In this document: one piece after another, positions 14,185 to 63,978 of the stretch
Numbering within the stretch: the stretch's first letter is position 1
How the letters are laid out: every line of letters starts with the position of its first letter
Origin: the human T2T-CHM13v2.0 reference genome, Homo sapiens
Length of the DNA stretch: 64,000 nucleotides
Strand: one strand, 5' to 3'
Assembly: GCF_009914755.1 (NCBI RefSeq)
Contig: NC_060947.1
Position numbers and translations under genes: made by a program
The notes under the pieces: generated by a model
Seen by the model: only the letters and a program-made list of their open reading frames with translations
What the model was told of the DNA's origin: nothing
The model's database searches: none

Positions 14185-15639
14185 TAAGCATGGACTGTAC
14201 TAGACATACACCCTCACAGGTTCACAAATTCATGCAACAATATTTGATCATCATCTGGAGGCAGAGCACATGCACATTATAAACAGTTATTTGGAGACTC
14301 TGACTTTAAAATGTTTCTTAAATTGAACTTCAAAATAGGTTCATGTCAGTCACACAAGTTCGAGTCTTTGAAATAATTTTAACATAATTTTGCAAATGAA
14401 TTTCTAAAATGAGGCAATGGTTTTAGAAGTGCTAAACATTTTGTTTTCATGCAGAGCATTTAATTCATTAAATGACCAATGTAACTGAAAGGAAATAATA
14501 ACCACCAGAATTCATATTTAATACTTCAGCTTTTATTTAACCCAGGATTTGACAAATAAGAAACAAAAAGACAGGAAGAGTTCTTGAAGGGTAGGGAATG
14601 TCATCATTATCTTTGCAGCAACACTGTATGATATTGTCTGGTATCGCGTTCTTTGTCGGGCTCTGTTTTTTCTCCTTGGTATAGAGCCGTATTTACTAGT
14701 GTCACCAGTTCCTCTTTACACTATATGATGGAATACAACCGAAGGACTTTCATAAACTGCATGTCCTCGGGAAGTAAAAGCAGGTTATTTCCAAATACCA
14801 CATTTACTTAGACAGTTCCCTCCCTTCTCTTCCTTTTCGCAATACTTTTGCTTAAAAAAAAAAAATGCAAAAATGGAAAACATAAAAGCACCTGGGATCA
14901 TCATAGTGATTGCTATCTTTTACTCATTTTCTATTTTTTTATTTTTAGTAATTATTTCGTTTTAAATATTTTATAATAATGCAGGATGTAAAGACATAAA
15001 ATAAGTTGATATCTAAGTAGCTATAGAAACATTAAAATAAATAGCTAGATATGAGTAAATTCTAAAGTTCATTAATAAAATAAAAATAACTGGAATATTC
15101 AAGTTCTAGGAATGTACGATTTAGCATAAATATCAAACATTATGTTGTGGAATCTGGAAATTGCTAACATTTATGGAGTTTCTTCTTAAGGCAATGAAAA
15201 TGTTCTAAAACTGTGGTGAAGGTTTCCTTAGTCTTTGAATAAACTATAAACTATTGTAATATTGTGGGCTATTTATGTGGGCATTTTTATGATAAATGAA
15301 TCTCTCAGTAAATGTTTTTTTTTAAAAAGAGGCCCAATCTTTATCTGTTCTCCACTCCCATTGCCACTTGACTAGCCTTAAAAAAAATAGGTCCAAGAGA
15401 TACATTAGAAAAAAAGCAGAAGTGAACAAAAAAGCGGTTGAATACCACCACAGCCCAAAGAATGAGGGAAAGAGAGAGAAGGTAGGAGGAGGGGAAAAGC
15501 TGCATTGCTGACTAGTTCTCTCCCCTCCTCCACTGTAGGTCTCACACACACATACACACACATATACATCACATTCTATACTAACCAGAGACAAGTCTCT
15601 GGTTGTTATTTTTAATGTCATGGGTAAAACCATGACTGT

Positions 15640-15930
<291 letters not shown>

Positions 15931-16438
15931 ATGACTGTTTTATTTCTTGTGAACTTGATAGTTCCTCTTATTCTTGCAAATGTTGACCATGCTTGCTCAG
16001 TGGCAGTACTCTGTGCCGAATATTCAGTCTTTGTTAATTAGGTTTTGTAGTCTTCTGCTCTTGCTTTTTGATTTTAAAAAGCACATTTTCAATAACTAGT
16101 ATACAGTCTATGTCACATCTGTTTATCTTTTATATGTATAAAGTCATGCTGTATATCTGTAAAGTCATATTCATTTTGTTCTAAGAAATGTCTTCTAGAT
16201 CCTTCTCAATGGATGTATTCTAATTACTTTGTCTTGTCCGGTAAATATTGTTTTAGTTACTCTATATGCATTTAAATATTTATCTCTTTCAAGTCCACAA
16301 TCTTGAGGTCCTCTCTTGGCTTTCTTTTTTATTGAGTCATAAACAGTAGCAACTTTAATGTCAATGAAAAGATGTTCTATCTCTACACTTTTATATGGAT
16401 TCTGGAGAATAAATTTCATTCTCTACTTATAGCTGCAT

Positions 16439-16520
16439 TTTATTAATTGACAAAAATTTGCTATTTCAAAGTCTTAGATTCATTTGCCAAACATTTTCAG
16501 GCCTTACTGCTTAGTTTATT
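16439..16520 (-). terminator. Two AATAAA poly(A) signals for the - strand ORF (16515-16520, 16439-16444)
   Basis: TTTATT on the + strand about 165 and 240 nt past the stop codon. The hexamer is common in AT-rich DNA. Confidence 0.35.
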
Positions 16521-16630
16521 ATATCGTGAGAAAAGGAATAAGAGTCAGGAGTTACCAGTTACGAAGTCTGAATTGACAAGAAGACTGTTCTGTTGGAAAA
16601 GTAAAACATTGTTGCTTCCTTAAGAGAGAA

Positions 16631-16680
16631 GGTGGTGGGGGGCGGTGGGGGGGGGGGTGAGGGGGGTGGGGGGGATGGGG
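16631..16680 (+). repeat. G-rich low-complexity tract, potential G-quadruplex
   Basis: ggtggtggggggcggtgggggggggggtgaggggggtgggggggatgggg; five runs of four or more G. Confidence 0.8.
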
Positions 16681-16683
16681 AAG

Positions 16684-17991
16684 CTACTTCCTCTTTCTTT
16701 GTGACTGTGTCTTCACTTTTCTCTTTAGCCCAGACTCCAAAAAGACACTCTCAGTATCACATTGAGGCTTATCGGCACCATACCCTGCACTTGTAGATTC
16801 ATTAATATTCTCCGAAGCAGACTGTTCATTGGAAGGTATCTGGTTAGAGCTATCTCTCACTGCAAATTTGGTGTTAGAAGGAATAGCAACCACTGCTCTT
16901 CTTTTTGTACTAGATTTTAAAGTAGAGTCTAAAGGCAAGACATTCAAAGGGATTATTTTCTTTTCCTTTGCAAGAGGGCTATATGAGGTTATAGAATAAT
17001 CCTCTAAAGTTTCCAGTAAACTTTCAGATACATGAGTTGGGTATTCTCCTGGGGAGATAGCGGAAGGGTTCCATGATGTGCCAATCTGAGTTTCTTTTTG
17101 CGGGGAGACCTTTGTTTCAAGTGTCCCTTTTGGCTGGCCAATCTTGTCTTCATGAAGATTGAAAAAATCTTGAAATTCATACCTCTTTTGAGGACTAAGT
17201 GAAGTTGTTAAAAGAGAACTTGCCAGTGGCTTCTGGCTGGCAGGGTCTTCTATGTTAGGCTTAGTGTCATTAGAGGAACTTTTCGCAAAAGAGGTCTCTG
17301 GCACTTCAAAGAGGCCTTGACTAAAAGATGGAGCTGGAAACTCTGAACTTTGTTGCAGTTCCTTTGTGCTCGTAGGTTTCATCTGCTTACTTTGTGACTG
17401 GCTTATCGATTTGATAGGCACATGCCTCTGCCTTCCTTGTGCAGGCTCCCTGACTGAAAAATCTGACATAGTCATTTGACTACCAGAAACGAAGTCATCA
17501 CTACCAGAAGTCTGAAATTGTTGTTGCCTCATTATTATTTTAGAAAGCCTTTTATTTTCTTCTCGTAATTTATTTGTTTCTTTAGTGAGTTCCGCAATAA
17601 AGAAAAGATTTTGTTGTTGGATTTCATAATAGTCTTTCTCTAGCGCAAGCCTGTATGTTTCTGTCATTGAACAGCAGTCACAGGTTTTTGCCTTTAACTG
17701 ATCTTTCAAGTCATTAATGGTGCTCTGCAGGACTCTCTGCTGTTTAGTCAACTCTTTAATTTTGGCTGTGGAGCCCGTCCGCCTCCCGTCTGACAATCGC
17801 TGTTTCCTCAGACTTGTTAATTTTGCCTGTAGACGCCGCAGCTCTTTATCATGGAGCTCTTTTAGCGCCAGCCATGTTTTTTTAAAATTGTCAGATTCCA
17901 AATCACATACACTAAGCCGTGATGATTCTCTTCCTGAAGATTTCTTACAACCTCTCCTCCCTCCTACACCCTCGTTCCCTGCCTGCATCAT
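16684..17991 (-). CDS. Intronless RBBP8/CtIP-derived ORF, 435 aa (CtIP N-terminal coiled-coil/oligomerisation domain plus low-complexity region), nested antisense in a DOCK11 intron
   Basis: By far the longest ORF in the window and free of repeats. FKKTWLALKELHDKELRRLQAKLTSLRKQRLSDGRR...LKAKTCDCC...IQQQNLFFIAELTKETNKLREENKRLS aligns to recalled CtIP [36 protein letters not shown]...LRAGLCDRC...[27 protein letters not shown]. ATG context aacATG has A at -3. Homology is confident; expression is not shown. Confidence 0.75.
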   Translation of the reverse strand: MMQAGNEGVGGRRGCKKSSGRESSRLSVCDLESDNFKKTWLALKELHDKELRRLQAKLTSLRKQRLSDGRRTGSTAKIKELTKQQRVLQSTINDLKDQLKAKTCDCCSMTETYRLALEKDYYEIQQQNLFFIAELTKETNKLREENKRLSKIIMRQQQFQTSGSDDFVSGSQMTMSDFSVREPAQGRQRHVPIKSISQSQSKQMKPTSTKELQQSSEFPAPSFSQGLFEVPETSFAKSSSNDTKPNIEDPASQKPLASSLLTTSLSPQKRYEFQDFFNLHEDKIGQPKGTLETKVSPQKETQIGTSWNPSAISPGEYPTHVSESLLETLEDYSITSYSPLAKEKKIIPLNVLPLDSTLKSSTKRRAVVAIPSNTKFAVRDSSNQIPSNEQSASENINESTSAGYGADKPQCDTESVFLESGLKRKVKTQSQRKRK

Positions 17992-18700
<709 letters not shown>

Positions 18701-19244
18701 TAATTTTTAAAACAAGTCAAATTTTGAGTCTATTTTCAGTTTTATTCTTGATGATTAGCATTTTGTAATAATTGAAACCTAGCAATATTCGTGGTCTTAT
18801 AAAACAATTGGAAAATTGGAAGTAACTAAGTCGACCTCCCCTGTTCCCTCATCCTCCTTGCCCCTCCATAAAGCCAACATTGTCTTGTCTTCCATCTTTA
18901 TCATTGAGAGGTTCTAGCTCAGTTGGGAATTAAGTCATTTGCCTGCTTTTGTGACACCTATGCGATTTTTACAGTTAGAGGAGGGTCTGCTGACACCATT
19001 AGCTCCATCAAAGTAGGATAAAAAAGGAGTGGAAAGTCAAGTGGTGGCACTGTTTGTTTTGTTTTGTTTTGTTTTAAATCTCACTAAGTAGGTGTGTTGG
19101 GGAAGAAATGGGTAAGAAAGAGAAGTATATGTGATAGATTTAAGAGACTTTTGTGTCTGAAATAGTTGTTCCACAGATAGATAGGACATCAGAATTTATA
19201 ATGCAAAGGCAGAGAGAAAAAGGAAAGTTATCTGTCTCTCCTGA

Positions 19245-20543: not shown

Positions 20544-21150
20544 GTATATGTATGTATTCCAAGACTCTTGGGGGGAAACCTAGTCTGGACATGGGAAGTT
20601 GTCCTATATTTCATCCTGAGCTATTTTTATATGATTATTGGAAGCTAAAAGAAAAATTAGAGATAGAATGAAATGCAATAAATTTTTAAATAAATAGTAC
20701 ACGTATATGATTTGTATGTGCATGTCTACAAAAACAAAGCATATCAATACAAAACCCTTGGATTAAAGTCTTACAAACTTTTACGGAAAATGTCAGAAGA
20801 ATAAACAGCAGTTAAGATTTTTTTTTAACTACTGTAATTGTACTGAAATATTTACTAATGAAAATATCTGATGTTGGGGATTTGCTTTAGAAACACAGGG
20901 GTAGGGAGGGTGGAGGGATATCAGGGGACCTATTCAGGGCAGAGGTCAAACAAGAATAGCCATGAGTTCAATCATTGTTGAATCTGGGGGATGATTGGGT
21001 ATGTAGGAGTTAACTATGGTACTCTCCCTACTTTTGTACGCGTTTGAAATTTTTAATAATATAAAGTATTTTAATGCTATTATTTAAAATGTAGAAATTG
21101 CCCCAATTTTTAGTGTGGAAGAACCTTTTAGAGATATTATTGACTATGCT

Positions 21151-21450
21151 GGCGGGCCAGGCGTGGTGGCTCACGCCTGTAATCCCAGCACTTTGGGAAG
21201 CTGAGGCAGGAGGATCACTTGAGCCCAGGAGTTTGAGAGCAGCCTGGGCAACATAGTGAGACCTGATCTCTACAAAAAATAAAACATTAGCTGGGCATGG
21301 TGATGTGCACCTGTGGTTCCAGGTACTTGGGAGGCAGAGGTGAGAGAATAATTTGAGCCTGGGAGGTCGAGGCTGCAGTGAGCCGCGCATGATCATTCCA
21401 CTGCCTTCCAGCATGGGTGACAGAGCGAGGTCCTGTGTCAAAAATAAAAA
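21151..21450 (+). mobile_element. AluJ-like
   Basis: Alu consensus. Confidence 0.85.
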
Positions 21451-21756
21451 ATGACTGATGGAGACCTTTGCTATGATAAGTTACAGAGCATAAAGGGTGA
21501 TTTGCATTGACAGGTTTTTTAAACCTGTCATTAAAATTGTATATGAAAACATGATGTAATTGTAGCAAATAAATGTAGAAAGAGAATATGGCAAGCCCGC
21601 AATTAATTATCTATGTATTTCTGTATAGCAAAACACTTATCATTATAATATGATTTAAATAGGCTATTCTTTGTAACTTATGACTTTTAAAATATCACTT
21701 GTTAATCTGTAGAGGATGTTAATATATTACTAACATGCTATTGTTTTTCTTTCTAG

Positions 21757-37120: not shown

Positions 37121-37566
<446 letters not shown>

Positions 37567-38349
37567 TAATTGTGATTACTCCTGTGGGGGTTAAGAGGAT
37601 GCAATAGGACTTCCTTAGCAGTGGCTAGGGTAAAGAGGAAACTCTGGTATTCTTGGTGCCAAAAACAAACTTTGAAAGCTTAATGATCTCTCTAAACTTT
37701 CTGGAACGTTCTGTGATTCATGACCTCCCATTTGTGTAAACAGAAATTTCTGCAGTATGGTTTTCACCTTAGTGTATGTGGTAGTTAGTGGATGGAGTAG
37801 GCATGCTTATCAGAATGGAAGAGTGGCCAAGAGCACCAGCTCTAGGGCCAGACTGCCTGGGTGAAAATCCTGTCTCTAACATTTACCAATTTTGAGACTT
37901 TGGTCGAGCATTTAAACACTTTTTTATAATAGTGCTTAACTCATAGGGTTATCGTAAAAATTAAAACATGTAAAGAACCCAGACTAGTGCTTGGCACATA
38001 GTAAGCTATTAGTTTTTAGTTACTGTTACAAGAAAACGGCAAACAAAGATCACTCCCATGGCTGTGCAATTCACAATGGAGGATCTGGGATTCAAAACCA
38101 GGTAGTCTGGCTCCAGAGCTAATGCTTTTATGTCCTGTGAATGTACTGCCACCAAGGTTAGAGCCTTTGAAGCCTGGGCTAGTTACATATTTAAAAAATA
38201 ATTTATTTAAAATTATTTCAGTGTACTATATGCAATACCAAGAACTGTAACAGGAAGTGAAAATCATATGTCCTCAGCATTGGATGACAAGCCTTAGAGC
38301 ACATCGATATTGTTGTTCAACTTGTCTTTTTTGTTTGTTTTGAAATTAG

Positions 38350-48560: not shown

Positions 48561-49663
48561 GTTCACAAAGAGTGTGAACGTAGAAAACAAGAAAGAAACA
48601 CAGAAAAGAGATTGAAGTTACAGTCCCATAAAATTACATTTCTTAAAAAAATTGTATTAAACAATGAGATGAAAATTACAGTGACACACTTCATAAACAC
48701 TTTATGAATTGATTTTTTAAAATACACAAATCTCAACTTAGCTCTGGCTTATTTAGTTAAATTAATGATACACCTAGAAGCTTTACCTACTATTTCTACA
48801 TAGTCTGTCTCCCTATCAGTAAAATAAGGACAATAATACTATCGTGGTCACTTCACAATACATGCGAAAACTTAAAAAGTCATGAAGTGTGAGAATAATG
48901 TCAGGTTTTATCATTGACCTACTTGGCAGTGAGATTTCTTAAAAGCAAGTTGGTGTCCTTTTACCCTCAGAACCTACAAGGATAGATACTTAAAATATGT
49001 TTGTTGAATTGATTGATCATAACAGAGATGCAAGATACTTGAATTTTTATTCCAGCTTAATTTTTGACTGTATAGCCTTGGACAAGTTAATTCATGTTTC
49101 TGGATATTAGTTAGATGATTTCCCAGAGACCTGCAGGTTTTACAGGCTGACAGCAGGAAGATTCAGAGGATTTCATGGGGCTTAACTGGTTCAGTACAAC
49201 TGAACTTATATCCTTGCCTTCTAAACAGCAGCTTCAGTGTATTCATAGAAATGGCTTTGAGCTTGACCCTTTTTTATACTCTTAAGGAGAGCAATAACTT
49301 TTCTTAATAATCAAAAACTGTAATTAGTTTTCTGTATAAACACATTTGTTGGAAATCTTTTGGGTTCTACAAGTAATTTATACATACTTCTATTTGATAT
49401 ATACAGGTAGAATCATGTTTTACCAAGTGCCACTTTATTTTTCAGTTTGCATAATAAGGCTTCTTCCTTAAACCCTAGCCAATTAAAAAAACTGACACTG
49501 ATTTAGAAGTTACATTGAAATGAAAAATACAAACAGTTGTCCATTTAGTGCTTGTATTTAAATATGTGAGTTAAACCGGTAATAACGCAATGTAACTTGT
49601 TTCCAAAAATGTATTTCTGACTTGATTTGCAACAGTTTTTTTTTTCTGCATGACACCACCTCA

Positions 49664-52200
<2,537 letters not shown>

Positions 52201-62169: not shown

Positions 62170-63978
<1,809 letters not shown>

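What the first reader, a model, noticed from the sequence alone, without database searches (positions are those of the whole stretch)
16684..17991. Intact 435-aa CtIP (RBBP8) N-terminal retrogene hidden antisense in a DOCK11 intron
Seen in sequence: a 1308-nt stop-free, intronless, repeat-free ORF on the - strand, in AT-rich intron DNA where other ORFs are short. Established knowledge: residues ~36-150 match the CtIP N-terminal domain. Patchy colinear similarity continues to the end (KVSPQKE~KTPPQEE, ITSYSP..LNVLP~NTSLSP..LKTLP, SSNQI..GYGAD~SSNKQI..EYGKD, RKRK*~SKRKK), so it corresponds to roughly the first 440 aa of CtIP. RBBP8 has many introns, so an intronless copy implies retroposition. 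Inference: protein divergence is large, so the copy is old, and an old neutral copy should not keep 435 open codons. This looks like a maintained, neofunctionalised X-linked CtIP paralogue, distinct from the multi-exon RBBP8NL. It may be annotated only as a pseudogene, if at all.
Basis: partly seen in the sequence, partly recalled or inferred. Interest (0 to 1): 0.92.

Follow-up and report, generated by a model that had tools for sequence, protein, structure and literature searches.

The report
Conserved X-linked CtIP retrogene labelled pseudogene
A gene copy on the human X chromosome that is catalogued as a dead copy of the DNA-repair gene CtIP still has an intact 435-codon reading frame that many other mammals also keep, so it probably encodes a real, fast-evolving protein that nobody has studied.

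Summary
Window 16684-17991 (- strand) is a 435-codon open frame, the longest in the window (next longest 202 codons). It carries a CtIP_N domain (Pfam E 1.8e-21). It is an intronless copy of RBBP8/CtIP spanning at least 8 parental exon junctions, and is annotated as pseudogene RBBP8P1.

New here:
- 63 protein clusters with the same architecture exist, 58 of them 400-470 aa. Named records are tamarin, marmoset, dog, clouded leopard, desman, sheep, goat and reindeer. Some are annotated as the protein 'RBBP8-like'.
- They form one clade beside eutherian CtIP, away from RBBP8NL.
- The family evolves very fast (human-dog 55% identity; CtIP 82-91% in comparable pairs), yet stays open with in-frame indels only. 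Neutral simulation gave 0 of 4000 open frames at that divergence.
- The 3' half of the same retrocopy (window 16037-16398) is decayed and frame-broken. It serves as an internal neutral control.
- Tetramerisation-core and zinc-hinge residues are invariant. The Sae2-like C-terminal domain and the CtBP motif are absent.

Best reading: a maintained, truncated CtIP paralogue consisting of an oligomerisation domain, a disordered tail and a basic C-terminus. Human expression, translation and orthologue dN/dS could not be tested.

The parts
16684..17991 (-). 435-codon ORF plus TAG stop (16684-16686); product P0001. Lies within the annotated pseudogene RBBP8P1.
   Evidence: hub annotation
17995..17997 (-). 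In-frame TGA two codons upstream of the first ATG. No longer N-terminus is possible.
17539..17886 (-). CtIP_N domain (residues 36-151): tetramerisation motif plus parallel coiled coil.
17851..17892 (-). Equivalent of the CtIP tetramerisation motif (residues 34-47). F36, W40 and L43 correspond to CtIP F20, W24 and L27 and are kept in 63 of 63 homologues. T39 replaces CtIP L23.
   Evidence: motif definition from PMC7895427
17671..17682 (-). CxxC (C104, C107), equivalent to the CtIP zinc-hinge cysteines C89 and C92.
   Evidence: PMC8205527
16687..16725 (-). Basic C-terminus (KRKVKTQSQRKRK); looks like a nuclear localisation signal. A similar basic stretch ends most of the 19 aligned homologues.
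   Evidence: the localisation role is inferred
16631..16680 (.). G-rich (+ strand) / C-rich (- strand) low-complexity tract directly 3' of the stop. Shorter in marmoset, where the stop is lost.
16228..16398 (-). Decayed relic of CtIP residues about 590-654, downstream of the ORF stop (31-43% identity).
16037..16114 (-). Decayed relic of CtIP residues 687-715, in a different frame from the first relic. 67% amino-acid identity (E 6e-7); 81% DNA identity over 63 nt to the RBBP8 exon (E 3e-12).
17998..18387 (-). 5' flank up to the Alu. GC 0.51-0.58 and CpG observed/expected 0.47-0.63, higher than the surroundings. No match to the RBBP8 locus. Candidate promoter or 5'UTR, untested.

Best explanation
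RBBP8P1 is an ancient retrocopy of the CtIP (RBBP8) mRNA inserted antisense in a DOCK11 intron. Before the radiation of primates, carnivores, ruminants and eulipotyphlans it was cut down by a stop codon at about CtIP residue 445. Since then the 5' part has been kept as a protein-coding gene while the 3' half decayed.

The product has four parts: a family-specific N-terminal extension of 29 residues; the CtIP tetramerisation motif and zinc-hinged parallel coiled coil; a disordered tail of about 280 residues that evolves very fast but holds a few conserved short motifs, including two conserved S/T-Q sites; and a basic C-terminus that looks like a nuclear localisation signal. It lacks the Sae2-like C-terminal domain and the CtBP-binding motif.

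Inferred mechanism: a nuclear protein that oligomerises like the CtIP N-terminal domain, with itself and possibly with CtIP. Lacking the MRN-activating end, it would act as a scaffold for, or modulator of, CtIP-dependent break processing. By analogy with other fast-evolving X-linked retrogenes, this would most plausibly be in the germ line.

Shown: the retrocopy origin, the anatomy, the conservation of the frame and the key residues. Inferred: oligomerisation, nuclear localisation, interplay with CtIP, tissue, and that the human copy is still in use.
For: Origin:
- The CtIP_N hit is continuous on X but split over exons on chr18 (RBBP8) and chr20 (RBBP8NL).
- CtIP maps to at least 16 exon pieces on chr18.
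- In the tree, 20 of 20 X-type sequences form one clade (support 100/100) joined to 11 eutherian CtIP (100/99). Non-mammal CtIP and RBBP8NL fall outside.

Maintenance:
- 63 homologue clusters were found. 58 of 63 are 400-470 aa, and pairwise identity ranges down to 34%.
- Named records are tamarin, marmoset, dog, clouded leopard, desman, sheep, goat and reindeer.
- Neutral substitution simulation from the human ORF gives these chances of staying open: 0.07 at 90% amino-acid identity, 0.001 at 72%, and 0 of 4000 at 55% (mean 10.9 stops).
- All 1-15 gap events against human are in frame.
- The domain is more conserved than the tail: 0.67 against 0.45 among 16 non-primate sequences, and 0.72 against 0.46 for human-dog.
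- Codon-position asymmetry of the ORF is chi2 38.4. It exceeds 2000 of 2000 stop-free random intronic codon strings and 410 of 410 intron windows, and is close to an RBBP8 coding stretch (35.4). The relic scores 2.9-3.1.
- Internal control: the 733 bases 3' of the stop (window 15951-16683) hold CtIP relics in two different frames and carry 16-18 stops per 244 codons.

Mechanism:
- F36, W40, L43, K44 and C104 are kept in 63 of 63 homologues, and C107 in 60 of 63.
- These correspond to CtIP F20, W24, L27 and C89/C92, which are defined as the tetramer core and zinc hinge in PMC7895427 and PMC8205527 (passages read).
- A peptide of CtIP residues 18-28 binds CtIP tetramers and inhibits CtIP (PMC7895427), so hetero-association through this motif is plausible.
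- PLDLS, RHR and LxCxE each occur in 0 of 19 aligned homologues. S/T-Q is conserved at residue 171 (17 of 19) and residue 224 (16 of 19).
Against: - No evidence of human transcription, translation or depletion of loss-of-function alleles could be obtained.
- The only paper naming RBBP8P1 uses it as a transcript feature. Those reads could be DOCK11 intronic RNA.
- Overall amino-acid divergence is about what neutral DNA would give. Constraint on most tail residues is therefore weak or absent.
- Primates depart from the family consensus at several tail motifs. Human differs at 21 of 91 columns conserved in non-primates; the other sequences differ at 4-37.
- CtIP L23, one of four tetramer-core residues, is Thr in the family. 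This could change or abolish tetramerisation or pairing with CtIP.
- The protein databases hold only open frames, so lineages with broken copies are invisible.
- No rodent, bat or afrotherian record is named among the hits.
Confidence: 0.6

Rival explanations
1. The gene is or was functional in other mammals, but the human or ape copy is a recently silenced unitary pseudogene whose frame has not yet been hit.
For: The human annotation is 'pseudogene' (hub table). Primates have lost or changed family motifs such as the acidic SDSDDD patch and SETSEENMPDY. Against an unnamed record of 90% identity, the domain is 0.93 identical and the tail 0.90, which is little differential constraint. At that divergence a neutral frame stays open 7 times in 100 by substitutions alone.
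Against: Human, the 90% record, tamarin and marmoset all keep the frame, with 1-4 in-frame gap events only. Human keeps all 12 key residues checked. The ORF tail keeps strong codon periodicity (chi2 41.6) while the relic has none. The cluster of sequences at least 90% identical to the human protein has 6 member sequences on 31 contigs.
Confidence: 0.25
2. The locus acts as RNA, either as an antisense regulator of DOCK11 or as a CtIP-related decoy transcript, and the open frame is incidental.
For: It lies antisense inside a DOCK11 intron. One study counts RBBP8P1 reads.
Against: An RNA function does not explain any of the following: 63 of 63 homologues with open frames; in-frame indels only; invariant protein-interface residues; a domain more conserved than the tail; or codon periodicity. 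No Rfam family was found in 15500-18800.
Confidence: 0.05
3. It is an ordinary neutral processed pseudogene, and the long frame is chance.
For: The annotation says pseudogene. Overall amino-acid divergence is close to neutral expectation.
Against: The chance of one 436-codon open run is about 1.7e-12. 0 of 4000 neutral simulations stay open at human-dog divergence. Many diverged open homologues exist. The 3' half of the same insert is riddled with stops.
Confidence: 0.02

Closest known systems
CtIP / RBBP8 (DNA endonuclease RBBP8; Sae2/Ctp1 family)
   Same: Shares the N-terminal CtIP_N domain: the tetramerisation motif with the F, W and L core, a parallel coiled coil, and the CxxC zinc hinge. 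Weak colinear similarity runs to about CtIP residue 445. It derives from the mammalian RBBP8 mRNA.
   Different: 435 aa against about 897 aa, and intronless. No Sae2-like C-terminal domain (Pfam finds only CtIP_N). RHR, PLDLS and LxCxE each occur in 0 of 19. The L23 equivalent is Thr. It has a 29-residue N-terminal extension. It evolves far faster: dog-cat family pair 62% against 91% for the CtIP N-terminal half.
RBBP8NL (RBBP8 N-terminal like, chr20)
   Same: A second vertebrate protein that keeps only the CtIP_N domain of CtIP.
   Different: RBBP8NL is multi-exon. It is an old paralogue that falls outside the CtIP plus X-family clade (outgroup branch 100/100). The X family is a later retrocopy of RBBP8 itself.
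Processed pseudogene (the current label, RBBP8P1)
   Same: An intronless copy of a spliced mRNA. Its 3' half is decayed and frame-broken.
   Different: The 5' 435 codons are open, conserved as a frame across orders, and show domain-specific constraint.
Fast-evolving X-linked retrogenes with germ-line roles (a general class, recalled, not tested here)
   Same: X-linked, intronless, rapid protein evolution with a preserved frame. Lineage-specific extra copies exist: 3 on one sheep contig.
   Different: No expression data were seen here. The germ-line role is an analogy only.

Membership tests
CtIP_N domain family (Pfam PF10482) | Match to the CtIP_N profile above the curated cut-off | tested here: met
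   76.7 bits against a cut-off of 27, residues 36-151. 19 of 19 aligned homologues match.
CtIP_N domain family (Pfam PF10482) | Tetramerisation-core residues F20, L23, W24 and L27 (defined in PMC7895427) | tested here: inconclusive
   The F, W and L27 equivalents (F36, W40, L43) are kept in 63 of 63 homologues. The L23 equivalent is a near-invariant Thr, T39.
CtIP_N domain family (Pfam PF10482) | C89xxC92 zinc-hinge cysteines (PMC8205527) | tested here: met
   C104 and C107 align to the two mutated positions of 7bgf_A and to rat CtIP C89/C92. C104 is kept in 63 of 63 and C107 in 60 of 63.
CtIP/RBBP8 orthologue (DNA endonuclease RBBP8) | Sae2-like C-terminal domain (PF08573) with a second CxxC and the RHR motif | tested here: not met
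   Pfam finds only CtIP_N. RHR occurs in 0 of 19 and there is one CxxC, against 17 of 17 and two CxxC in CtIP. Downstream DNA holds only decayed relics of CtIP residues 590-715.
CtIP/RBBP8 orthologue (DNA endonuclease RBBP8) | CtBP-binding PLDLS motif (the role is recalled) | tested here: not met
   0 of 19 X-family sequences against 17 of 17 CtIP.
CtIP/RBBP8 orthologue (DNA endonuclease RBBP8) | Multi-exon gene at the RBBP8 locus | tested here: not met
   The X copy is continuous, while RBBP8 on chr18 is split into at least 16 coding pieces.
RBBP8NL | Groups with RBBP8NL sequences; multi-exon chr20 gene | tested here: not met
   The tree puts the 4 RBBP8NL-like rows on the far side of a 100/100 branch. 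The chr20 hits are split over exons.
Processed pseudogene (non-functional) | Intronless copy of a spliced parent | tested here: met
Processed pseudogene (non-functional) | Reading frame disabled, and not conserved as a frame between species | tested here: not met
   The 5' 435 codons are open in human and in 63 homologue clusters. Neutral simulations reject chance. Only the 3' half is disabled.
Processed pseudogene (non-functional) | Poly(A) tail and target-site duplications | tested here: inconclusive
   None is obvious by eye in 15900-18450. The 3' end runs into an Alu at about 15950. At this age they are expected to be eroded. No dedicated search was made.
Expressed protein-coding retrogene | Own transcript and translated product in human | not testable with these tools
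   No RNA-seq, CAGE, Ribo-seq or proteomics is available here. Only one paper names RBBP8P1.
Expressed protein-coding retrogene | dN/dS below 1 or PhyloCSF signal on orthologous codon alignments | not testable with these tools
   No orthologue DNA was found in genome contigs or viral contigs. Protein-level proxies only.

The most novel reading that the evidence does not exclude
Human RBBP8P1 encodes a positively selected nuclear 'CtIP N-terminal domain only' protein, probably expressed in the germ line. Through the conserved F-W-L tetramerisation head it would co-assemble with CtIP and tune or antagonise MRN-CtIP end resection, for example at meiotic breaks. Its faster-than-neutral tail would reflect an evolutionary conflict. 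It would be an unrecognised natural regulator of a core DNA-repair factor, hidden under a pseudogene label.
Probability: 0.2. Interest if true: 0.85.

Novelty: new member of a known kind. Interest (0 to 1): 0.7.

Why it matters
CtIP tetramerisation is essential for DNA-end resection and homologous recombination, and a short mimic of its tetramerisation motif is enough to inhibit it (PMC7895427, passages read). A natural, conserved protein made of just that oligomerisation module plus a rapidly evolving tail would be a candidate endogenous regulator of break repair or meiotic recombination. It is missing from human protein catalogues because of a pseudogene label. It also shows cleanly how one retrocopy can be half gene and half fossil. 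If the human copy is expressed, it becomes relevant to X-linked infertility, to cancer-testis expression, and to interpreting CtIP-directed therapies. The claim can be tested directly with existing public RNA, ribosome-profiling, proteomic and population-variant data.

Tried and rejected
- A homologue search restricted to longer proteins (763-2175 aa) found nothing. CtIP-length relatives came from the exhaustive representative search instead.
- Searching the own genome with the protein found only the ORF itself. The Pfam profile was needed to find the RBBP8 and RBBP8NL exons.
- My first blastn of the X region against the chr18 locus was swamped by Alu matches. I repeated it against exon pieces only.
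- The 5' flank 17992-18392 has no match to the fetched 140 kb of the RBBP8 locus; the best hit was 17 nt at E 0.55. Whether it is old 5'UTR or host DNA is open.
- The sigma-70 promoter and terminator scan is meant for bacteria and says nothing here.
- Rfam found no family in 15500-18800.
dN/dS therefore could not be computed.
No fold, oligomer or CtIP-pairing model was obtained.
- The ESM Atlas's own model of this protein has mean pLDDT 0.49 and its nearest clusters are RBBP8. It added nothing beyond the sequence evidence.
- Literature searches: 'RBBP8P1' gave 1 paper; 'RBBP8 pseudogene' gave 0; 'RBBP8-like' gave 1 paper, on ants; 'RBBP8'+'retrogene' gave 2 irrelevant papers; 'CtIP'+'retrocopy' gave 1 listed, irrelevant paper. 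Supplements were not searched.
- P0196 (897 aa, unnamed) was considered as human CtIP, but it is not identical to the chr18 exons. It was used only as a close eutherian CtIP.
Full report
OBSERVATION

Window 16684-17991 on the minus strand reads as 435 codons plus TAG. The stop-to-stop run is 436 codons, bounded upstream by an in-frame TGA two codons before the first ATG. It is the longest open run in any frame of the 64-kb window. The next longest are 202, 176 and 150 codons, and the 7 other ORFs of at least 140 aa look like Alu or other repeat read-throughs. Stops make up 0.060 of codons across the six frames, so one 436-codon open run has a chance of about 1.7e-12.

Pfam CtIP_N matches residues 36-151 (E 1.8e-21; 76.7 bits against a cut-off of 27). 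The solved human CtIP coiled coil 7bgf_A matches residues 47-155 (E 1.6e-16), and the tetramerisation peptide 4d2h matches residues 34-68. By the hub's table, the ORF sits antisense between two DOCK11 exons, inside the span annotated as pseudogene RBBP8P1 (16040-17907). That span omits the first 28 codons.

ORIGIN

The Pfam profile was searched over the window's own genome. The CtIP_N domain is one continuous hit on X. It is split over exons on chr18 (RBBP8) and on chr20 (RBBP8NL), and no further copy reaches the cut-off.

Rat CtIP (P0072) and a close eutherian CtIP (P0196) map to at least 16 coding pieces across about 90 kb of chr18. At least 8 of those junctions fall within the part that the X ORF covers without interruption. 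It is therefore a retrocopy.

A maximum-likelihood tree was built on the N-terminal region, about 165 columns and 44 rows. All 20 X-type sequences form one clade (100/100) on a stem of 1.51 changes per column. That clade joins 11 eutherian CtIP sequences (100/99). Non-mammal CtIP and the four RBBP8NL-like rows used as outgroup fall outside it. No marsupial CtIP was in the set, so the insertion cannot be placed more finely than 'mammalian CtIP'.

THE RETROCOPY WAS ONCE LONGER

Downstream of the stop, still on the minus strand and in CtIP order, lie two relics. One corresponds to CtIP residues about 590-654 (window 16228-16398; 31-43% identity). The other corresponds to residues 687-715 (window 16037-16114; 67% identity over 24 residues, E 6e-7; 81% DNA identity over 63 nt to the RBBP8 exon, E 3e-12). 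The two are in different frames. The 733 bases between the stop and the next Alu carry 16-18 stops per 244 codons in every frame.

One insertion therefore supplies its own control. Its 3' half decayed as neutral DNA does, while its 5' 435 codons stayed open. The ORF DNA gives only two short significant matches to RBBP8 exons (73% over 66 nt and 78% over 45 nt). The coding part has thus diverged from the parent at least as far as the relic has.

CONSERVATION ELSEWHERE

A search of about 5.8 billion proteins returned 63 clusters at E of 0.001 or better, all carrying CtIP_N. Of these, 58 of 63 are 400-470 aa (median 437), and pairwise identity runs from 34% upward.

Named records are Saguinus (72% to human), Callithrix ('RBBP8 pseudogene 1', 71%), dog and clouded leopard (both named 'DNA endonuclease RBBP8-like'), Galemys, sheep (three copies on one contig), goat and reindeer. 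The remaining records are unnamed, and I did not try to place them.

Almost all homologues end at the same basic stretch. The truncating stop therefore predates the split of these orders. The marmoset protein has lost the stop and reads on into sequence that matches the human 3' flank at 24 of 26 residues. This shows that the two loci are orthologous.

The exhaustive representative search gave 96 hits. It shows that CtIP-length proteins match only about residues 20-220 of the query.

IS THE FRAME KEPT BY SELECTION?

Five results bear on this.

1. I evolved the human ORF in silico by substitutions alone. The table gives the chance of staying open at each level of divergence.

| Amino-acid identity | Substitutions per site | Chance of staying open |
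|---|---|---|
| 90% | 0.05 | 0.07 |
| 72% (the tamarin level) | 0.16 | 0.001 |
| 55% (the dog level) | 0.30 | 0 of 4000 (mean 10.9 stops) |

2. Gap events against human number 1 (the 90% record), 4 (tamarin) and 7-15 (the others). All are in frame.

3. The CtIP_N domain is more conserved than the tail. Among 16 non-primate sequences the values are 0.67 against 0.45, and for human-dog 0.72 against 0.46. Neutral decay would not produce that difference.

4. Codon-position base asymmetry of the human ORF is chi2 38.4. This is above all 2000 stop-free random strings of intronic codons (maximum 36.2) and all 410 intron windows (maximum 23.6). It is close to an RBBP8 coding stretch (35.4). The relic scores 2.9-3.1.

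5. Twelve key positions are close to invariant. F36, W40, L43, K44 and C104 are kept in 63 of 63, and C107 in 60 of 63.

One caveat applies to the homologue count. The databases list only open frames, so lineages with broken copies cannot be seen.

THE PROTEIN EVOLVES VERY FAST

The table compares identity in X-family pairs with identity over the first 445 residues of CtIP in comparable pairs.

| Pair | X family | CtIP first 445 aa |
|---|---|---|
| tamarin - marmoset | 90% | not compared |
| goat - reindeer | 82% | not compared |
| dog - clouded leopard (CtIP: dog - leopard) | 62% | 91% |
| human - dog (CtIP: capuchin - dog) | 55% | 82% |

Set against my simulation scale and recalled neutral distances for these pairs, overall replacement is at about the neutral rate or above it. 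Those neutral distances were not measured here.

Between human and marmoset the ORF differs at 125 of 433 residues. The 3' flank, read in the same frame, differs at 2 of 26 (one-sided Fisher p = 0.011). That sample is small, and the flank may itself be constrained.

The overall pattern is a frame, a domain and a few short motifs held fixed, with everything else changing rapidly. That fits a mix of purifying and positive selection. A formal dN/dS could not be run because no orthologue DNA was reachable.

Human departs from the consensus at 21 of 91 columns conserved in non-primates. The other sequences depart at 4-37 such columns. Primates are therefore on the fast side of the range but not outside it.

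ANATOMY AND LIKELY MECHANISM

The CtIP tetramerisation motif (residues 18-31) packs F20, L23, W24 and L27, and the L27E mutation abolishes tetramers and function (PMC7895427, passages read). C89 and C92 form a zinc hinge in a parallel coiled coil spanning residues 31-136 (PMC8205527, passages read).

In the X family the equivalents of F20, W24, L27, C89 and C92 are invariant or nearly so. The equivalent of L23 is a near-invariant Thr.

The family lacks the Sae2-like C-terminal domain: Pfam finds only CtIP_N, and RHR occurs in 0 of 19. It also lacks PLDLS (0 of 19) and LxCxE (0 of 19). It keeps S/T-Q at residues 171 (17 of 19) and 224 (16 of 19), a conserved island at residues 224-233, and a basic KRK...KR.K end. 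The Atlas's own model of this protein is mostly low-confidence (mean pLDDT 0.49), which is consistent with a disordered tail.

From this I infer a nuclear protein that oligomerises through a CtIP-type head and coiled coil but cannot activate MRN. It could act as a separate scaffold, or it could co-assemble with CtIP and so modulate it. Co-assembly is plausible because an 11-residue mimic of the motif already binds CtIP tetramers and inhibits them. It is not shown. The L23-to-Thr change could redirect the specificity of the interface.

COMPARISON WITH WHAT IS KNOWN, AND NOVELTY

The protein is a member of the CtIP_N family. It is not a CtIP orthologue, because the C-terminal domain and partner motifs were tested and are absent. 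It is not RBBP8NL (tree). It also fails the defining feature of a dead processed pseudogene over its 5' 435 codons.

The open library gave no paper describing it. 'RBBP8P1' appears in one paper, as a transcript feature only. 'RBBP8 pseudogene' gave 0 papers. 'RBBP8-like' gave one paper, on ants. 'RBBP8'+'retrogene' and 'CtIP'+'retrocopy' returned nothing relevant. Supplements were not searched. Other species' annotations already call it a protein, so its existence is in databases, but it is uncharacterised.

VERDICT

My confidence levels are:
- about 0.9 that the family is a selected protein-coding gene in boreoeutherian mammals;
- about 0.6-0.7 that the human copy is still functional;
- about 0.3 for any specific mechanism involving CtIP.

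Interest is 0.7.

Noticed in passing
window 16631-16680: A G-rich (+ strand) tract with period about 9-21 directly abuts the ORF stop. It lies on the DOCK11 sense strand and could form G-quadruplexes in the pre-mRNA. Marmoset has a 12-residue-shorter version and has lost the stop, giving a 468-aa protein.
   Followed up: partly
proteins P0034, P0054, P0056 (sheep hybrid, one 145.9-Mb contig): Sheep has three copies on one contig. Two of them (P0054, P0056) have lost the second zinc-hinge cysteine (C to S) and end early. The third (P0034) is fused at its C-terminus to an NADH-dehydrogenase-like segment (PF00146), which may be a mitochondrial insert or a gene-model artefact. Many further 410-440-aa clusters of 43-46% identity suggest lineage-specific amplification.
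   Followed up: partly
PMC13740305 (sections 10, 11): A 2026 multi-omics paper uses RBBP8P1 RNA as a prognostic feature and states that it regulates cell cycle and DNA damage responses. No evidence for that statement appears in the passages I read. The reads could be DOCK11 intronic RNA if the libraries were unstranded.
   Followed up: no
alignment A1, human residues 160-170, 285-292 and 322-331: Primates have deleted or rewritten motifs that are conserved in other orders: the acidic SDSDDD patch before FIPCTQ, a KRK-containing stretch, and SETSEENMPDY. This may reflect relaxed or redirected selection in primates.
   Followed up: partly
L017-L018 (own genome C18:23186008-23187117): The 1110-nt stretch that tblastn aligned as one 'large exon' of RBBP8 (CtIP residues 306-648) contains 3 in-frame stops and 28 extra residues. 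It probably spans a short intron read through in frame. Not checked.
   Followed up: no
window 21028-21480, 37141-37569, 49661-50191, 62170-62613 and others: The other long open frames of the window (142-202 codons) translate to typical Alu-derived peptides or low-complexity sequence. None looks like a gene.
   Followed up: no
window 16330-16530, - strand: Several AATAAA hexamers lie 160-350 nt downstream of the stop and could serve as poly(A) signals for an ORF transcript. The region is AT-rich, so they may be chance (read by eye).
   Followed up: no
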